Below are positions 11,566 through 63,447 of a stretch of DNA of 64,000 bases, in pieces. The stretch is from Perkinsus olseni (taxonomy: Eukaryota). The stretch is taken from assembly GCA_013115125.1 (NCBI GenBank), contig JABANN010000093.1, positions 1-64,000 of the forward strand. The letters are read 5' to 3'. The notes under the pieces were generated by a model. It was given only the letters and a program-made list of their open reading frames with translations, searched no databases and was not told the DNA's origin. The first letter of the stretch is position 1; each line of letters starts with the position of its first letter. The translations under genes and the position numbers were made by a program.

Positions 11566-11636
11566 GCATCATTGGTCTAGTGGTAGAATACAACGTTGCC
11601 ATCGTTGTGACCCGAGTTCGATTCTCGGATGATGCA
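11566..11636 (+). tRNA. tRNA-Gly(GCC)
   Basis: Acceptor stem GCATCAT/ATGATGC, D-loop TAGTGGTAGAA, anticodon arm CAACG-TTGCCAT-CGTTG, T-arm CCGAG-TTCGATT-CTCGG, followed by TTTTT. Confidence 0.97.
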
Positions 11637-12775: not shown

Positions 12776-13404
12776 ATTAACGTAGCCTGCAGCTATGGAA
12801 GCACTGACAACGGGAGGAATCCACGGCGACGGTTACAACGCCACGCTCGGATGGTACAAAGAAATGCTCCTCAGCGAGCACGTGGTCTTGGAGAACCACA
12901 GCGAGATGAGAACGAAACGCCGAACAGAAAACACATAGCGTAGCGGCACATATCTCAGAGAAAAAACCAGAGAAAGGACCAGGAATCAGGCAGAGGGCTC
13001 TGACAATACCAATTAGAGAACCGAGATGAGCATAAACTCAGTGACCAACGTGACCCATCATGCTCGAGATGAAAGACGAACCGGAAATCATTGTCCTTGC
13101 AGAAATGTTCCTACTTGGACGTGGCACGAGTTGGATTAGCAGCATAAAGATATTAGGCCGACAGTAGTTATCGGCTACGACGACGAAGAAGAACAGGTTG
13201 ATACCAGAGGAGAACACATGAATGTACCTGACAATTACCGCAGCCTTTACGGGACCCTTGGCTGGCTTTAAAAGCGAGATATCGCCGTACTCAAGATACC
13301 GTACGCATGTACACAACAGCAGACGGTGCAAAAGCTCTGGCGATGTGAGACCGTTCCAATGCTGCCGTGTTGTCCAACAAGAAGGAAACACATTATAATC
13401 AGTT

Positions 13405-13475
13405 GCATCATTGGTCTAGTGGTAGAATACAACGTTGCCATCGTTGTGACCCGAGTTCGATTCTCGGATGATGCA
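13405..13475 (+). tRNA. tRNA-Gly(GCC)
   Basis: Identical to 11566-11636; followed by GACTTTT. Confidence 0.97.
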
Positions 13476-13977
13476 GACTTTTCGGCTTATATCCCTATTG
13501 TGTTCTGTGTCTTCTCGATTCGAACCTTCAATGCGTCGTAGGAGATCAGGAGATGAAACAAGTCACTTGCCAGCAACCGGGAAATGTGTCGCCGCGATAG
13601 CCCGAATACAAGACGTGGCCCAATGCCTCGGACAAGGGATCAGTGTCAACATGGCAACCCAGTGAACTTCCGATGAAAGCCTCGGCTTTTGGTTGATGAC
13701 CCGTTATCGATGACAGAGGGACAGAGTAGCGTGACCATGGAGATCATGATACTCTCATGATGAGAGAATCGGTCGACTGACTGATGTGGCATAATGAAAG
13801 CATCCAGAAAAGTCAGTCAGAGCCTCCAACTAAAAGGCACCAACTATTCGAAAACATTGAGCTTTATACAGCTCCTTGACATTTAAACAGCGAGAAGCTC
13901 ATCGATAGTAGCGGGTGACCCTGCTCTGCAGGACCGTCGATCTTTGTACGATCGGTAACACTCGAAGTGACGGCGAG

Positions 13978-20291: not shown

Positions 20292-20362
20292 TGCATCATC
20301 CGAGAATCGAACTCGGGTCACAACGATGGCAACGTTGTATTCTACCACTAGACCAATGATGC
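20292..20362 (-). tRNA. tRNA-Gly(GCC)
   Basis: Reverse complement identical to 11566-11636; followed by GCTTTT. Confidence 0.97.
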
Positions 20363-37946: not shown

Positions 37947-40484
37947 CTAGCCTACCCCGGCTCCAGCCGACTCGGAGGGTCCCTCCTCTCCAAGGAGGTC
38001 CAACTCCCTCGACCCTCGACCACGACCACCACCACCACCACCACCATCGCCGTCCTCGATATCATGCGGGGGCTCTGATGATGTTGAGGAGGACCAGTCA
38101 TCATCGATATCCTCGAATCGGTGAGAGTAGGGCTCTTGTGTGACACCTGAAGTTGGCCATCATGCGTTGAAGGATCTGTGACAGCTGGGGAGCTCACCCA
38201 GTTGGTACACTCCTCCTCTCTTCCTCGAACGCCATCCGTAACACATAACCTACACAGACGGTACGCAGTAGCAGATGGCAGAGAACTTACACAACAAGCC
38301 GCCAAGATGAGGACCCCCGCAACGACAACAACTGCCGCAACCCCGGCGTCCGAGAGCGGCGAGGAACCGAGTGGCACGAATCCAGTAGAAGCAGGAGGAG
38401 GAGGGGCTCTCGTTATCGACTCGACCTGCTCCGCCGGCAGAGCTGGCGCCAGTGTCGGCATGAAACTGTGGTGAGGAGGAGGGTAGGTCTGAGGGGGTGG
38501 CATGAGGCAAGGAGAAGAAGCGTTCCGGAGAATGGCAGCTCACCGAGTCCATCCAGGGAGGCATCGCGCCCTGCACAGAGTTCGGCCTCTCAACATACTG
38601 TGGACAGTCTGCCTCCGCCCACCCAAGCCGCCGATCCTCGAGGTCGAATATGATATCATGGCCTTGCATCCACGATGCGCCTAAAAGCACCTGTGCCGTG
38701 GATCGATCCAGGGACCTTCCGATTACCCAGCACCGTCTCCCTCGCGTGATTGTCCTCCAGGGTATAGCAGTACGTATTGCTATTCGCTTTATTGTACCTG
38801 AACGCGACTCACGTACTAGCATCGTTATCCCACATCCGATCCCCGCGCATGCCTGCTAAGTTCATACCACAACTTCCCTTCTTACATGTAAAACGTAGGG
38901 CGCCACAGTCTGTGCTTCCCCCCAATAGTAAACCGGAACACTGGGAACGAAGAGGTGTCATTACCAGGCGACTGAGAAAGGGAAATCTCAACGTATTGAG
39001 AAAAGCTTGAACACAGCTCATTACCACCCAACAGGTCCTGTCCTTCCGAGTGGCCCCTCCACAAGCGCCGTCCTTACACGCCTCGTCTACAGCAGCTGTG
39101 AAGCTCTTAAAGATTTGCGGAGGGAGGTACCTGACCGAGAGGGAATGGCGACGAAAAAGGCGGAGCGAAGCTCTTACGTGTAAGTCGTCCCAGAGTCCAC
39201 CATGGCATTACCAAAACTATCCTTATCAGTGGCTATGTCCGTCACCTGCACGAATGCTGTTCATTCAACCGTAGAAGCTTCAACAAGGCGACTCACGGTG
39301 GTGACCCCCTTGACGGTGGAGGGCTGGTCTTCCGGATAGAGGCCGAAGGACTCGATATCAAGGTAATAGAAACCTCGCTCTGTGCTCATCGGGCCCCAGT
39401 TCACCGATGACCTGCGGACAGAAGCAAAGTTGACAGACTAGACCTCTGCTGTGTCGCCACTTACGTGTGCTTGGTGGCGTTGTACCCACCTACCACAAGC
39501 TCTCCTCCCCAGGTCGCCAAGCACATAGATAAAATACTTTTGTCCACCTGAAAAGTGCCGTTGCTAGGGATCGAACCTGAGACCTTCCTACTTGATTGTT
39601 CTCCGAATTAAAGAGAGTCTGTAGCACTGTTTGGCTGTCGGCTCTCGGAGGCGCCATTCCCATGATACCTGAGACTAACTCTCCCCAACGCCGAGCCCAC
39701 ACGCCTTCTAATACCATTGGCCTTCTGCGTGTAGAAGAGTTTATTCTCGCTTGTGTGGCAGCCAAGCTTAGTCATCACCGCTGGGTTCAGCTCATCATGG
39801 TCATCCAGACTGACGTAGTCCTTAAACCAGTACCCTTCTATGCTGGACCCCTCCGTGTAAGATTGATGGTAACTGACAAAGAGACTGTGGCGACAGACAG
39901 GGCGATGGTCGACTGCCTTACTAGCATTTGTCGTTCCTGCACTGCGTCCGAATAGTAGCGGGGCACTCGTCGCAGGACAGCCACTGCGCCGTCGAGCTCT
40001 TGTTCATGTCAAAGCGGGGATCGATATGAGTGCCAACATGAGCCTCCGGTATCTCACAGGTGAACCCCGGCAATGTCGAACCTGAAGGAATGCTACTTGG
40101 GTGAATGTGTGATGGCAGGAGGGAGAAGCTACCAGTGTCGACGATGAGGCTGGTCCGCTGCTGTGGTGTCCCCACGAGGAGGTCTATGAACCAGTAAGCA
40201 TACCGATCAATGTGGCCAAAGAGCTTGGCTGTAACCGTCGTATCACCTGCGGGAAGAGCATCCCAAGCAATAGGGGACAGCGGCACGGACCAACCTCTGC
40301 TGTAGACCAACTCTCTGAGGTTGCTGGTGCTGTGAAGTTGGCGTATTCCTGAGCCATCACCGTCATAAACTCCCCTTCTAGACCCTCCCTGAGCGGTGGA
40401 CGTTGTGGATAAGGCCAACAGTAGTAGGGGCATCATCATCGTCACTGCCGTACACAAACGGGTGGGATAGAGGTGAGGTGACAT
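37947..40484 (-). CDS. Membrane-anchored aspartic protease, plasmepsin V/ASP5-like (A1 family), multi-exon
   Basis: Signal peptide; YAYWFIDLLVGTPQQRTSLIVDTGS; Cys-rich insert CDECPATIRTQCRNDKC; LSMCLATWGGELVVGGY; MVDSGTTY; LGASWMQGHDIIFDLEDRRLGWAEADCP; C-terminal TM VAAVVVVAGVLILAA. Confidence 0.9.
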
Positions 40485-52540: not shown

Positions 52541-52612
52541 TCCGCGGTAGTATAGTGGTGAGTATTCCTGCCTGTCACGCAGGAGACCCGGGTTCAATTC
52601 CCGGCCGCGGAA
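52541..52612 (+). tRNA. tRNA-Asp(GTC)
   Basis: Acceptor TCCGCGG/CCGCGGA, anticodon arm CCTGC-CTGTCAC-GCAGG, T-arm CCGGG-TTCAATT-CCCGG, followed by CTTTT. Confidence 0.97.
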
Positions 52613-52797
52613 CTTTTCTGCTATTGTTCCGGGCAACGTGAACTATGAATTTACATGGTACATATGTTACGCTCTTGAGTTTGGCCTCGCTACAGCCCTA
52701 ACTGAGACAATCCACGCATTATCTGGTATCTTTCGAGACAAGAATGTCACGAATACTCTCGAGCAGGGCTCGGAGGCTCTCAGGAGAAGCAGTGGAG

Positions 52798-60229: not shown

Positions 60230-61540
60230 TACTACAAAACCTCATACAGCAGCCGTGGAAGGGCGTCCTGCAGCACAAAGATCGAGGGCACGCAGCCACA
60301 GCTGACCACCTACTCCCGGGCTGCCGACGTCCACTGCTGGTCGAAGCCTTCTGAGTGCTCGGTCGCTGAGGTTTGACCTCTCCGCGCAATATCCTCACCA
60401 TCGACGGTATTCTGAGAGGAGGTAGTCACGGCAGCCCGACCGAGACCCGTCTACCTCCCCGAGAGTATTTTCCCCCGATGGAGGTTCTCCGTATTGATGT
60501 AATCCCTGACCCTATTGGGCACGGCATTCCCTTGCACCCTGCTGCTGTTATCCTCAGCATAGCTGCCATGCTCCAACAACACTCTACAGCTCTCCCGAGC
60601 GTCCATTGCAATCGCCGAGTCAGCCCCCGATCCGGGCGGATAGTCCTCACTGAGGAGACCAACCTCAACACGCCACCAACAGCAGAGCCCTCACCTGTAT
60701 CTTGTCCGAGCGTCGAAGTGGAAGCCCATGGTACTGGTAGTGGGCTTCGGTATCGGGGGCTTGCACCTCTCCCCGACGCACTCAATACCTCCTGAGTTCC
60801 TCTGCCAGTCAGGATAGAACTCGTGAGAGGCCGGCTGCTTGTACCTGCACGAATCACCCTACAATGCTGTGCAATAGTGCAGCGAGGTTACAGGAGGTAA
60901 AGTTCCCCATCAACATGGGTCTGGACGGCAGGCCTCAGCATGGCCTCCTTCCGAGCTCCAGGGTACACCACGTAGTCGTCCGAATATCGACTCCGGCCCT
61001 TCTGCTGAGGACTAGGGCCATTGGCCGGACCTACACAGCTCGATAGGTGATAGTAGGTAAAGGGGGACTCCGCCCTTACTCGAGGCAGGCCGGAAGGTCT
61101 TTGCCAACTCCCTGTTGATGACCGCACCTTGCAGGGGCAGTGGTTGGTACTGTTCCATATACGCGGACATCTCCCGCGGCCAGAACGGCGCCCTGTTGGG
61201 CTTGAACTCCCCTGAGCGATGGTCAGAGCCACAGGATCAGACCCAACAGCACTTACCTCGCCGGGCCATGTCCTCATCGATCTTGTGAATGCAGGACATA
61301 CTCTGGCTGCTGCTGCTCGCGCCACTGGAAGACTTACCCACCACCACGGACTTGTCCACGAAAGTCTCCTTAGTAGTGGTACTGTAGAAAAGCTTACGTA
61401 CATCTTCAGGGGAGAAGGAACTTTGTATCTGCACGATAATACCTCAGCCGGGAATCGAACCCGGGACCTATCAGTGTCACCTGTGGTGTAAAGCCCTGGG
61501 ATGCCATCAGCTTCTTCTTAGCATCGTGTACAGCCGGCAT
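60230..61540 (-). CDS. Multi-exon hypothetical protein, possibly microtubule-inner-protein-like
   Basis: MPAVHDAKKKLMASQGFTPQ splices in frame to IQSSFSPEDVRK; recurring short motifs STTTKETF, SRYSDDY, ASHEFYPDW, STMGFHF. The 3' end is approximate. Confidence 0.5.
61440..61477 (-). pseudogene. tRNA 3'-half fragment (Val-like) filling an intron
   Basis: ACACTGATAGGTCCCGGGTTCGATTCCCGGCTGAGGTA: perfect T-arm, variable loop and 7-nt acceptor strand plus discriminator; no 5' half nearby. Confidence 0.75.
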
Positions 61541-61825
61541 GACTATCAAAGGCCCAATGAACTAATCAACCCCTCAACTCCGATTCACAACACAACGTCC
61601 CTCCAGATAACATTCAAGGCCATTCTGAGAGGCGACCACCTGTCGCCGGGCGGGCATGTTGGCATGAATTCCTCCATAGAGGGCGGAGAGCTGCACAAAG
61701 AGACTTCCTGCCGATTCGGCAATGGCTTCGTTATGGAAGAAGAACAAGAGAAGGGAAAATGCCAAGGTCGGCCCGCTGCCATGAATTTGACAGGCATGAA
61801 CAGCCGAGTATATGGTACAGTGGGG

Positions 61826-63447
61826 TCAGGTAGACGGCGGGTGGGGTACCAGGCACGACACTATAACCGTGATGTCATCAATGACAACACCTCCACCTTG
61901 ATCGAGCCACCTCCGACAGGCCCTCTTCGCCAGGACATCAGCAGCCGTCTGGGCCTGCCTACTACTAGTGAGGATAGTACTCACTATACCAACAGCCTCC
62001 TGTGTCGAGATGAACTCCCATACACCATCACTACAGACAAGAAGGAAGGGATCCCCGGGCCGCCACTCTGAACTAGTGGACATTGAGGAAGACGAGGAAC
62101 TATCTCTCTCAGGATCTCTCAATACAGCCTTCCTCCTAGTGTCCGGTATTGGGACGACCCCCGCCCTGTAGTAGGCTATTAGATCCCCCATCGCTCGGGA
62201 CATGTTTAAACCAGGGTAGCTTTGACCCTTCACGTACACTCTATAGCTACAATGGCCGTCGAAGCCGACCTGAAGGGGGGCAGCAGCCACAGCACCCCCA
62301 CCACCATGGATGGACCCCCGGCACTACCCTTCCGCCAGATTTCTCGATCCTCGCCTTCTCCTCTGGCCTGTCCGGGCGGTGGTCGGTGGTCATCTCCACG
62401 CCCTTTGGGGTAGAAGGCAAGGCTAGGACTGCCCTCGAGTCCCCAACCCATGCTGCTGTGACGGTGTCCGTCTTGTGACTATGCAGGAGACGGCATCTCC
62501 GAGGGATGGACGATGAGGGCGATTAGGGCTCACCAGTGGATGCATAAGGTGGCTGTACTCCCACTGCAGGCCGCGTCTACTTCACCGGACTTTGTTGCGG
62601 CCTAACACTTTCATACCACACCAATCGCAACTCATTATTACCTCTAAGCGCTGCTGTACCGCAGGAAACCATGCCCTCAATGCCCTGTCAAGCCCTCGTT
62701 CCTCACTAATGGCATCCTTAGGTTCGTTAAGAATCAACTAAGCAAGAGAAGTCCAGTGCAGCACAGTGGTTCTATCCCTCACTTTCACCAAGCTCTCCTT
62801 GACGAAATTGGAGACATCATGCCCGTGCAGACCATGACCGTCAAAAACCCCGTAGACTGTGAAGCTATCATCAACATTCATAATCAGAAAGGAATCCTGA
62901 GGTTGATTATGGTCAATCTCGAGTAGCTCCCGCCGATCGCCATTACCTGATTCGGGCTGTCGGGCTTCAACCCCTTCTTGCAGGCATAACCGATCCCACT
63001 GTCCCTCAGCGTCCTCTCCGGTACCCCACCCAGCAGTAGAATATCCTTATCCTTATAAGTCTCCCTATGATGGAGATCAGAATCAGTAGTAGAGGCAATA
63101 GACCATCGCCGCCCCCGTGCAGCATCATCTAGTGAGTGGGAGCCCTTTGACATTCCCGTGGCCACGATGTCGTCAACTCCCACTGCCTCCACCCCTCGTG
63201 AGCAGGAAGAAGACGACCGCGAAGAAAGGATAGATCGTATTTTGGAGGGCCTACAGAGGGGGTAGTGCTTATCAAGGCTCATCCCTAGAACCCTTTACTT
63301 TTTGTCCTCCCCTACTGCCCCCGGTTCCGTTATGGAAAGCCTCCTCCGTCGAGCCGCGTCCGAGGAGGTCAGACTAGGCCTGCGTATTTTCCGCAGGATG
63401 GAGGTACTCGAGGACGATGAGGAAGCCGTGGAAGGTCCGCAACCCAT
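61826..63447 (-). CDS. Protein phosphatase 2C (PPM family) with N-terminal MGC acylation motif
   Basis: GYACKKGLKPDSPNQD, YGVFDGHG, GLNMSRAMGDL, LLVCSDGVWEF, DDITVIV. Confidence 0.95.

What the first reader, a model, noticed from the sequence alone, without database searches (positions are those of the whole stretch)
61429..61480. 52-nt intron that is almost entirely a pristine tRNA 3' half
Minus strand: CAG|GTGACACTGATAGGTCCCGGGTTCGATTCCCGGCTGAGGTATTATCGTGCAG|ATA. Removing it joins MPAVHDAKKKLMASQGFTPQ to IQSSFSPEDVRK in frame. About 38 of the 52 nt form the 3' anticodon stem (ACTGA, Val-like), variable loop, a perfect CCGGG/CCCGG T-stem and an acceptor strand. The fragment starts about where the anticodon loop would be, right at the splice donor. 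No complementary 5' half (ACCTCAG plus D-arm) is seen on either side, so it is neither an intact nor a locally permuted tRNA.
Basis: partly seen in the sequence, partly recalled or inferred. Interest (0 to 1): 0.75.

Follow-up and report, generated by a model that had tools for sequence, protein, structure and literature searches.

The report
Spliced mini-intron made of tRNA-like DNA
A genuine 52-base intron in a gene of the shellfish parasite Perkinsus olseni is built almost entirely from what looks like the back half of a tRNA gene, most likely a harmless relic that hints at how this intron arose.

Summary
A transcript-like contig removes exactly 61429-61480 on the minus strand (GT..AG, 52 nt), along with five other 43-49-nt introns of the same gene. 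A GenBank Perkinsus olseni model has the same exon junction.

The tRNA likeness is real but partial:
- The intron holds the only perfect T-arm in the window outside the four true tRNA genes.
- Its flanks match the window's tRNA-Asp and tRNA-Gly 3' parts as well as those two match each other (13/24, 13/24, 11/24). Only 11 of 126,818 control positions do as well.
- ARAGORN and the Rfam tRNA model do not call it.
- No 5' half lies nearby, and the RNA fold is unremarkable.

No genome was held, so the source tRNA and the orthologous intron in sister species could not be checked.

Best reading: an ordinary spliceosomal intron whose body derives from tRNA-gene DNA, in a lineage known for hundreds of tRNA gene copies. 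It is not a split or permuted tRNA. Capture of a tRNA-gene fragment at the intron's birth is plausible but unproven. Interest is moderate to low.

The parts
61481..61563 (-). Exon 1 as covered by the transcript contig: 5' UTR 61563-61541, then ATG at 61540 and 20 codons (MPAVHDAKKKLMASQGFTPQ) ending at 61481
   Evidence: X1 contig record 1 starts at 61563 and runs to 61481 with 0 differences. Translation. Same N-terminus in P0012. The G-[FVI]-x-P motif encoded here is present in 11 of 15 aligned relatives.
61429..61480 (-). Intron 1: 52 nt, GT..AG, phase 0
   Evidence: The joint 61428/61481 skips 52 nt with ends CT..AC on the + strand, in X1 contig record 1, with 83 nt on the shorter side. Sequence.
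61440..61480 (-). tRNA-like segment corresponding to tRNA positions 32-73 (4-nt variable-loop register): anticodon-loop-like GTGACAC, TGATA, GGTC, T-arm, CTGAGGT, A73
   Evidence: Ungapped comparison with the window's tRNA-Asp and tRNA-Gly 3' parts gives 13/24 and 13/24 outside the T-arm and 16/17 and 15/17 inside it. Only 11 of 126,818 control positions reach 13/24 with both.
61448..61464 (-). Perfect T-arm CCGGG-TTCGATT-CCCGG. It contains the B-box-like GGTTCGATTCC at 61451-61461.
   Evidence: Rfam aligns it to the T-arms of the tmRNA and Y-RNA models. It matches the tRNA-Asp T-arm region at 52587-52605 in 18 of 19 positions.
61441..61447 (-). Acceptor-3'-strand-like CTGAGGT. Its CTGAG (A at 61444, 16 nt before the 3' splice site) is my candidate branch site.
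   Evidence: Sequence. Inference: a TGA-containing motif sits 10-16 nt before the 3' splice site in 5 of the 6 introns printed. Intron 5 has TTGAGGT at the same distance.
61481..61487 (-). Exon-end ACCACAG, which pairs 6/7 with CTGAGGT. Judged coincidental.
   Evidence: Rfam mascRNA-menRNA alignment: 25.1 bits against a gathering score of 42.5, with E=0.93 for the whole window. There are 127 one-mismatch matches on that strand of the window.
61257..61428 (-). Exon 2 (IQSSFSPEDVRK...)
60268..61256 (-). Rest of the gene seen so far: exons 3-7 and introns of 45, 49, 47, 45 and 43 nt, plus a further 46-nt intron at 60268-60313 inferred from a loose end
   Evidence: Joints. X2 contigs confirm 4 of these 5. 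The loose-end consensus matches 60237-60266, read.

Best explanation
This is an ordinary, efficiently removed GT-AG spliceosomal intron. It is phase 0 and 52 nt long, a typical size for Perkinsus. It sits in a conserved myzozoan gene of unknown function in Perkinsus olseni.

Its body (41 of 52 nt) derives from the 3' part of a tRNA gene, positions 32-73. This part includes a still-perfect T-arm.

It does not act as a tRNA or as half of one; it acts only as an intron. In this reading:
- The donor GT coincides with tRNA positions 32-33, where U33 is the universally conserved U.
- The acceptor-strand-like CTGAG lies where the branch site is expected.
- The 11-nt tail TTATCGTGCAG supplies the 3' splice site.

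The fragment fills nearly the whole intron, and the gene's other introns are 43-49 nt. The most economical history is therefore that the intron was created when a tRNA-gene fragment was captured in the coding sequence, for example as filler DNA during break repair. Insertion into an older intron is less likely.

Shown: the splice, the coding continuity and the tRNA likeness. Inferred: tRNA-gene origin, the branch site and the mode of birth.
For: Splice:
- X1 contig record 1 (1158 nt, 0 differences) skips exactly 61429-61480 and five more GT..AG segments of 43-49 nt. X2, from another study, confirms 4 of those five.
- GenBank model P0012 starts MPAVHDAKKKLMASQGFTPQIQSSF.
- Exon 1 encodes G-[FVI]-x-P, present in 11 of 15 aligned relatives.
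- P. marinus introns are reported as 39-1622 bp, mostly under 100 bp, with GT/AG ends (PMC3101222, passages).

tRNA likeness:
- It is the only strict T-arm outside true tRNAs in the window (5 found, 4 in tRNAs). Simulation gave 6 per 30 Mb.
- The exact B-box-like 11-mer occurs only here.
- The flanks match tRNA-Asp 13/24 and tRNA-Gly 13/24, against 11/24 for Asp versus Gly. Only 11 of 126,818 control positions match both as well, or 39 if the first three donor bases are ignored.
- Multiplying the two rates, which assumes they are independent, gives about 0.003-0.01 chance sites in 87 Mb on both strands. The 87 Mb is the P. marinus assembly size from PMC7789003 Table 1.

Raw material: P. marinus is reported to carry more than 500 copies of five tRNA types, plus tRNA-targeting Dada transposons (PMC3706591, section 10 and passages). 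This window alone has 3 identical tRNA-Gly genes and 1 tRNA-Asp gene.
Against: - No source tRNA was identified. The window's tRNAs are not the source (29/41 and 28/41 identity overall).
- No other copy of the intron exists in the window.
- ARAGORN and the Rfam tRNA model do not call it. A true 3' part of equal length scored 24.9 bits.
- A 3' part alone cannot show stem pairing.
- Two of the flank matches (T33, G34) could be due to the splice donor, and CTGAGGT could be shaped by branch-site selection, since intron 5 has TTGAGGT.
- There is no target-site duplication beyond CAG, which the splice consensus itself explains.
- The age of the intron is unknown. The P. marinus orthologue model P0005 starts only in exon 3, and no DNA of sister species could be reached.
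- Across a scan of very many windows, roughly one chance case of this quality is conceivable.
Confidence: 0.6

Rival explanations
1. Chance resemblance. The intron is ordinary, and its T-arm-like palindrome and flanks arose by drift plus splice-signal constraints, with no tRNA ancestry.
For: - The Rfam tRNA model is not significant.
- The fold is no better than shuffles: z=+0.76, and 154 of 200 shuffles fold at least as well.
- Strict T-arms are expected about 35 times by chance in 87 Mb on both strands (rate).
- T-loop-like strings also occur in coding sequence of this window, for example AGGTCCCTGGTTCGA at 58351-58337.
- The donor and branch-site consensus explain some of the flank matches.
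Against: - The T-arm and the independent flank similarity together give about 0.003-0.01 expected per genome (independence assumed).
- GGTC immediately before the T-stem was seen in 0 of 6 simulated T-arms.
- The register puts a U33/A37 loop exactly where the window's own tRNAs have it.
Confidence: 0.17
2. Functional tRNA-like element kept by selection. Either the B-box DNA binds TFIIIC without a full Pol III gene (an ETC-like site or tRNA-gene relic inside a Pol II gene). Or the pre-mRNA forms a tRNA-like minihelix (exon-end ACCACAG with CTGAGGT plus the T-arm) that tRNA-processing enzymes recognise, in competition with splicing.
For: - An exact GGTTCGATTCC lies about 100 bp downstream of the transcript's 5' end. 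The B-box consensus itself is recalled, not from a call.
- In yeast, ancient tRNA-gene relics (ZOD1, and YGR033C derived from a tDNA-Arg ancestor) and ETC sites are bound by the Pol III machinery or by TFIIIC (PMC5356446, one passage).
- The mascRNA-menRNA model aligns end to end at 25.1 bits.
- The T-arm is perfect although introns differ between P. olseni haplotypes. The intron-2 read-through in P0003 differs from the window.
Against: - The mascRNA score is far below the gathering score of 42.5, with E=0.93 across the window. Its alignment needs a 3-bp stem with a 1-nt loop.
- The MFE and centroid folds keep only the T hairpin.
- ACCACAG is coding sequence for a conserved motif.
- There is no convincing A box at tRNA distance.
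- No conservation data exist.
Confidence: 0.1
3. It is the 3' half of a split or permuted tRNA gene whose 5' half lies elsewhere and is joined in trans.
For: The fragment starts at the anticodon loop and ends with an acceptor-like strand and A73.
Against: - No ACCTCAG lies on that strand within about 1 kb.
- It sits inside a Pol II intron that is spliced out.
- No leader or bulge-helix-bulge-type flank was seen, and no Pol III T-run follows it. The window's true tRNAs have TTTT within 3 nt of their ends.
- The anticodon in register would be GAC. That eukaryotes generally do not use GAC is recalled, not from a call.
Confidence: 0.02

Closest known systems
Intron gain by capture of unrelated DNA during double-strand-break repair. 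The review PMC3443670 (passages) lists Bigelowiella under this mechanism and cites Curtis & Archibald 2010, 'A spliceosomal intron of mitochondrial DNA origin'.
   Same: A short spliceosomal intron whose whole body resembles a recognisable non-intron sequence from the same cell. The splice signals are supplied by the captured piece and its edges.
   Different: The putative donor here is a nuclear tRNA gene, not organellar DNA. The donor copy has not been found, and the recency of the gain is not shown. 'tRNA' occurs 0 times in that review.
tRNA-gene relics and ETC (extra-TFIIIC) sites in yeast: ZOD1, YGR033C, ETC1-10 (PMC5356446, one passage)
   Same: A tRNA-gene remnant retaining an intact B-box-like T-arm region, located inside or beside a Pol II gene.
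   Different: No protein-binding or transcription data exist here. It lies in a spliced intron, and nothing of this kind is known to me in alveolates.
Dada-split tRNA genes of Perkinsus marinus (PMC3706591, section 10 and passages)
   Same: The same genus. Hundreds of tRNA gene copies and many tRNA gene fragments are generated by tRNA-targeting DNA transposons.
   Different: The reported Dada breakpoints/TSD (TAGCTC) lie in the A box of the D-arm, whereas this fragment starts at position 32. Reported targets are tRNA-Ile, Leu, Gly and Tyr. No Dada element was looked for beside it.
Introner elements (Micromonas, Aureococcus, Amoebophrya; PMC7789003 passages)
   Same: The intron sequence may originate from inserted DNA that carries or creates splice sites.
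   Different: Introners are multi-copy families with inverted and direct repeats. No second copy exists in this window, and no terminal inverted repeats were seen. Genome-wide copy number is untested.
mascRNA/menRNA tRNA-like elements (Rfam RF01684)
   Same: An acceptor-like helix plus a T-arm without a normal anticodon arm, embedded in a Pol II transcript.
   Different: The score of 25.1 bits is below the gathering score of 42.5. That family is from vertebrate lncRNA 3' ends, and there is no thermodynamic support here.

Membership tests
Spliceosomal GT-AG intron | GT...AG boundaries | tested here: met
   GTGACA...GTGCAG. The joint ends are CT..AC on the + strand.
Spliceosomal GT-AG intron | Absent from the RNA-derived sequence, with exons joined precisely | tested here: met
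   X1 contig record 1 bridges 61428/61481 with 83 and 173 nt on the two sides and 0 differences. The run's RNA label is a guess, but the contig lacks six GT..AG segments.
Spliceosomal GT-AG intron | Removal restores a conserved reading frame | tested here: met
tRNA gene (Rfam RF00005 / ARAGORN) | Complete cloverleaf with a 5' half; score at or above the gathering score of 29 bits | tested here: not met
   ARAGORN finds 4 tRNAs, none here. Rfam lists the same 4 and no tRNA hit here. Relaxed ARAGORN only pairs it with a 5' part 793 nt away, among 31 mostly spurious calls.
tRNA gene (Rfam RF00005 / ARAGORN) | Canonical T-arm (5-bp stem, G53, TTCRANY, C61) | tested here: met
tRNA-derived fragment (3' part) | Similarity to bona fide tRNA 3' parts outside the T-arm, in fixed register | tested here: met
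   13/24 and 13/24; the empirical rate is 11 of 126,818.
tRNA-derived fragment (3' part) | An identifiable source tRNA or repeat family in the same genome | not testable with these tools
   No genome is held. Within the window the only similarity is the tRNA-Asp T-arm, 18/19.
Split or permuted tRNA gene | A complementary 5' half (acceptor strand, D-arm, anticodon-stem strand) nearby or elsewhere | tested here: not met
   No exact ACCTCAG on the strand within about 1 kb, and no convincing A box at tRNA distance. The rest of the genome was not testable.
mascRNA-menRNA (RF01684) | Score at or above the gathering score of 42.5 bits | tested here: not met
   25.1 bits
ETC / lone B-box TFIIIC site | B-box consensus without a functional Pol III gene | tested here: met
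   GGTTCGATTCC is exact at 61451-61461, and there is no tRNA gene. The consensus is recalled.
ETC / lone B-box TFIIIC site | TFIIIC occupancy without Pol III | not testable with these tools
   Needs ChIP.
Introner element | Many near-identical intron copies; terminal repeats or target-site duplication | tested here: inconclusive
   No second copy in 64 kb. Only a CAG repeat sits at the borders. The genome was not testable.
Dada-flanking tRNA fragment | Break at the A-box TSD (TAGCTC) next to a Dada element | tested here: not met
   The fragment begins at position 32, not in the D-arm. The presence of a Dada element nearby was not tested.

The most novel reading that the evidence does not exclude
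This intron was born when the 3' part of a tRNA gene (positions 32-73) was captured in the coding sequence of a conserved gene. The tRNA's universally conserved U33 became the T of the splice donor, and its acceptor strand became the branch site. That would be a traceable case of a spliceosomal intron of tRNA-gene origin, in a genome flooded with tRNA gene copies.
Probability: 0.3. Interest if true: 0.55.

Novelty: new member of a known kind. Interest (0 to 1): 0.35.

Why it matters
How new spliceosomal introns arise is still argued, and cases in which the donor sequence can be recognised are few (review PMC3443670, passages). If a matching tRNA gene is found in Perkinsus genomes and sister species lack this intron, it would be a clean, datable example of intron birth from a tRNA-gene fragment. 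It would also show how universally conserved tRNA positions can double as splice signals.

If the T-arm instead proves conserved across species, it would point to a lone B-box or tRNA-like element inside a Pol II gene of an alveolate. If neither holds, it is simply a tRNA-gene relic in an ordinary intron.

Tried and rejected
- **Sequencing runs:** no RNA holder listed. Two runs of uncertain kind were laid as contigs. X2 has no cover over 61305-62300.
- **Relaxed ARAGORN with introns:** 31 calls at -ps90 and 140 at -ps80, mostly with introns of hundreds to thousands of nt. One was a 'tRNA-Ser' joining 61440 to 62310. I rejected these as false positives.
- **RNA fold of 61425-61500:** MFE -17.8 kcal/mol, z=+0.76. 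No special structure beyond the T hairpin.
- **mascRNA-like minihelix:** below threshold, and sterically odd.
- **Truncated-mode Rfam on 61438-61480:** only the T-arm scored. The tRNA row is hidden by the clan rule, so its exact score is unknown.
- **Other T-loop-like sites:** 36605, 39567, 44754, 58351, 18805 and 164 were read. For 39567, which is followed by a T-run, Rfam gave no tRNA-clan hit even in a 181-nt search. 58351 lies in a long open frame. None was pursued further.
- **22-mer GGTTCGATTCCCGGCTGAGGTA in public collections:** 0 hits in prokaryote genomes and 11 metagenome loci. One is a tRNA-Gly(TCC) in a four-tRNA cluster (L007). One lies upstream of a tRNA-Leu (L006). Eight fall into two repeat families that ARAGORN does not call as tRNAs (L001/3/10 and L002/5/8/9/11). 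One is at a contig end (L004). None resembles the intron outside the tRNA-like part, so they do not identify the source.
- **Protein searches for the N-terminus in sister species:** exon-2 query, 'longer' found only P. olseni (1 protein among 55 candidates) and 'near' found nothing. The P. marinus model lacks exons 1-2.
- **Pfam:** no family for the gene product.
- **Literature:** searches for Perkinsus + intron + tRNA (68 papers, 20 listed), Perkinsus + introner (2), 'intron gain' + 'tRNA-like' + spliceosomal (1, on permuted tRNAs, listing only) and 'intron gain' + 'tRNA gene' + SINE (47, 12 listed) gave no report of a tRNA-derived spliceosomal intron.
- **Figures and supplements not seen:** Figure 2 of PMC3706591, which shows P. 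marinus tRNA sequences, and Table S1 (.xls) of PMC3101222. Both may bear on the source tRNA and on intron data.

Full report
**What is there.** The ATG is at 61540 and the 52-nt GT..AG segment is at 61480-61429.

**Organism and gene.**
- Translated exons are 100% identical to hypothetical proteins of Perkinsus olseni (4 proteins with E<=0.01 among 9 candidates; names). The orthologue in P. marinus is 81% identical.
- No whole genome is held for the window.
- The gene product has no Pfam family.
- It belongs to a family with 43 representatives at E<=0.001. Named members come from the dinoflagellate Oxyrrhis marina and the chromerid Vitrella brassicaformis (10 of the 43 looked up).
- The upstream neighbour on the same strand is a PP2C phosphatase.

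**The intron is real.**
- I laid the contigs of two public runs on 60300-62300. One 1158-nt contig of run X1 lies on the minus strand with no differences. It skips exactly 61429-61480 and five further segments of 45, 49, 47, 45 and 43 nt, all GT..AG once the stated cut ambiguity is allowed for.
- Contigs of run X2, from another study, confirm four of those five but do not cover the 52-nt one.
- X1's RNA label is only a guess, but a contig lacking six GT..AG segments is what a spliced transcript gives.
- GenBank model P0012 (KAF4693194.1) begins MPAVHDAKKKLMASQGFTPQIQSSFSPEDV, the same junction.
- I aligned the first 290 residues of P0012 with 15 of the 43 relatives, choosing those whose matches start near the N-terminus. 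In this alignment exon 1 encodes a G-[FVI]-x-P motif present in 11 of the 15, and the alignment runs straight across the junction.
- P. marinus introns are reported as GT/AG, 39-1622 bp, mostly under 100 bp (PMC3101222, passages). The size is therefore typical.

**How tRNA-like is it? Against:**
- ARAGORN finds three identical tRNA-Gly(GCC) genes and one tRNA-Asp(GTC) gene in the window, but nothing here.
- Rfam lists the same four tRNAs. For this site it lists only a sub-threshold mascRNA-menRNA match: 25.1 bits against a gathering score of 42.5, with E=0.93 for the window.
- In a 43-nt truncated-mode search only the T-arm scored, as tmRNA at 12.3 bits. Any tRNA row was hidden by the clan rule. 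The true tRNA-Asp 3' part of the same length scored 24.9 bits as tRNA.
- The RNA fold is no better than shuffles, z=+0.76.

**How tRNA-like is it? For:**
- A strict T-arm scan finds five sites in the window. Four are in the true tRNAs and the fifth is this one. A first-order Markov simulation gave 6 in 30 Mb, none preceded by GGTC.
- The exact 11-mer GGTTCGATTCC occurs only here.
- In the register fixed by the T-arm, with the 4-nt variable loop used by the window's own tRNA-Asp and tRNA-Gly, intron base 1 falls on tRNA position 32. GTGACAC then reads G32-U33-GAC-A37-C38.
- Outside the T-arm the intron matches tRNA-Asp at 13 of 24 positions and tRNA-Gly at 13 of 24. Those two tRNAs match each other at 11 of 24.
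- Of 126,818 other positions on both strands, only 11 match both tRNAs as well. The count is 39 if the three donor bases are left out.
- Multiplying the T-arm rate by this flank rate assumes independence. It gives roughly 0.003-0.01 such sites by chance in a genome of 87 Mb, the P. marinus assembly size in PMC7789003 Table 1.
- I conclude that the segment is most probably derived from a tRNA gene. 'Pristine' cannot be claimed without the source.

**No 5' half.**
- No exact ACCTCAG lies on the strand within about 1 kb.
- The exon's last seven bases, ACCACAG, pair 6/7 with CTGAGGT, and this pairing is what the mascRNA alignment uses.
- That strand of the window has 127 one-mismatch matches to the 7-mer. 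These bases encode the conserved motif, and the alignment needs a 3-bp stem with a 1-nt loop. I treat the pairing as coincidence.

**Elsewhere.**
- The 22-mer covering the T-loop, T-stem and acceptor-like strand has no match in 185,579 prokaryote genomes. It has 11 matches in metagenome contigs.
- These comprise one tRNA-Gly(TCC) in a tRNA cluster, one site upstream of a tRNA-Leu, two repeat families without a callable tRNA, and one contig end.
- They show that this T-arm-plus-tail occurs in tRNAs and in repeats that look tRNA-derived in other organisms. They do not identify the source here.
- Within the window, the only similarity to the intron is the tRNA-Asp T-arm, 18/19.

**Context from papers.** P. 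marinus is reported to hold more than 500 copies of five tRNA types and five Dada transposon families that insert into tRNA genes at the A box (PMC3706591, section 10 and passages). tRNA-gene DNA and fragments are therefore abundant in this genus. The Dada breakpoints, however, do not match a fragment starting at position 32.

**Mechanism.**
- Shown: the segment is spliced out and the frame is conserved.
- Inferred: the donor GT coincides with tRNA positions 32-33.
- Inferred: CTGAG (A at 61444, 16 nt before the 3' splice site) is the likely branch site. A TGA-containing motif sits 10-16 nt before the 3' splice site in 5 of the 6 introns printed, and intron 5 has TTGAGGT at the same distance.
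- Inferred: the 11-nt tail supplies the acceptor.
- The tRNA-like part fills 41 of 52 nt, and the sister introns are 43-49 nt. Creation of the intron by capture of a tRNA-gene fragment is therefore more economical than insertion into an older intron. This is the weakest step and needs sister-species DNA.

**Rivals.** These are pure chance (0.17), a functional lone B-box or tRNA-like RNA element (0.10; precedent in yeast tRNA-gene relics and ETC sites, PMC5356446 passage) and a split tRNA half (0.02).

**Comparison and novelty.**
- The closest known kind is intron gain from captured DNA during break repair. The review PMC3443670 lists this mechanism for Bigelowiella and cites the mitochondrial-DNA-derived intron. 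'tRNA' does not occur in that review.
- My four literature searches found no report of a tRNA-derived spliceosomal intron.
- As it stands, this is a new member of a known kind: a tRNA-gene relic inside an ordinary intron. A 0.3 chance remains that it is a traceable intron birth.

Noticed in passing
window 11566-11636 (+), 13404-13476 (+), 20292-20362 (-), 52541-52613 (+): Three identical tRNA-Gly(GCC) genes lie within 9 kb, plus a tRNA-Asp(GTC) gene. Each is followed by TTTT within 3 nt. This fits the very high tRNA gene copy number reported for Perkinsus marinus (PMC3706591).
   Followed up: partly
window 61563-61580: The transcript contig of the upstream PP2C gene ends at 61580 and the contig of this gene starts at 61563. 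Only 16 nt separate the two same-strand transcripts. No spliced-leader letters were seen at the contig start.
   Followed up: no
window 60268-61563 and GenBank models P0003, P0006, P0012, P0013: Public gene models of this locus disagree. P0012 (2066 aa) fuses it with downstream genes. P0003 reads through the 45-nt intron 2 in frame, while its sister isoform P0013 splices it. P0006 joins later exons to the next gene. The window's haplotype has a stop inside intron 2 and several amino-acid differences in exon 2.
   Followed up: partly
window 60268-60313 (-): A further 46-nt GT..AG intron is implied by the 188-nt loose end of the X1 contig. Its consensus matches 60237-60266.
   Followed up: partly
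proteins P0014-P0054: The gene belongs to an unnamed family with no Pfam match, with 43 representatives. Named members come from Oxyrrhis marina and Vitrella brassicaformis. Conserved motifs include G-F-x-P near the N-terminus and APFW...Y..PL...N.ELA. P0015 and P0029 are recorded on contigs of 7 kb and 43-58 kb. Whether those genes have introns could not be checked.
   Followed up: partly
window 39555-39600 (-): AGGTCTCAGGTTCGATCCCTAGCAACGGCA followed by CTTTT looks like a tRNA 3' end with a Pol III terminator. It has a mismatched T-stem and no 5' half, and it gets no Rfam tRNA-clan hit even in a 181-nt search.
   Followed up: yes
L001/L003/L010 and L002/L005/L008/L009/L011: Two repeat families in metagenome contigs carry the same T-loop, T-stem and CTGAGGTA tail without a callable tRNA. 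They are probably tRNA-derived repeats of other eukaryotes.
   Followed up: no
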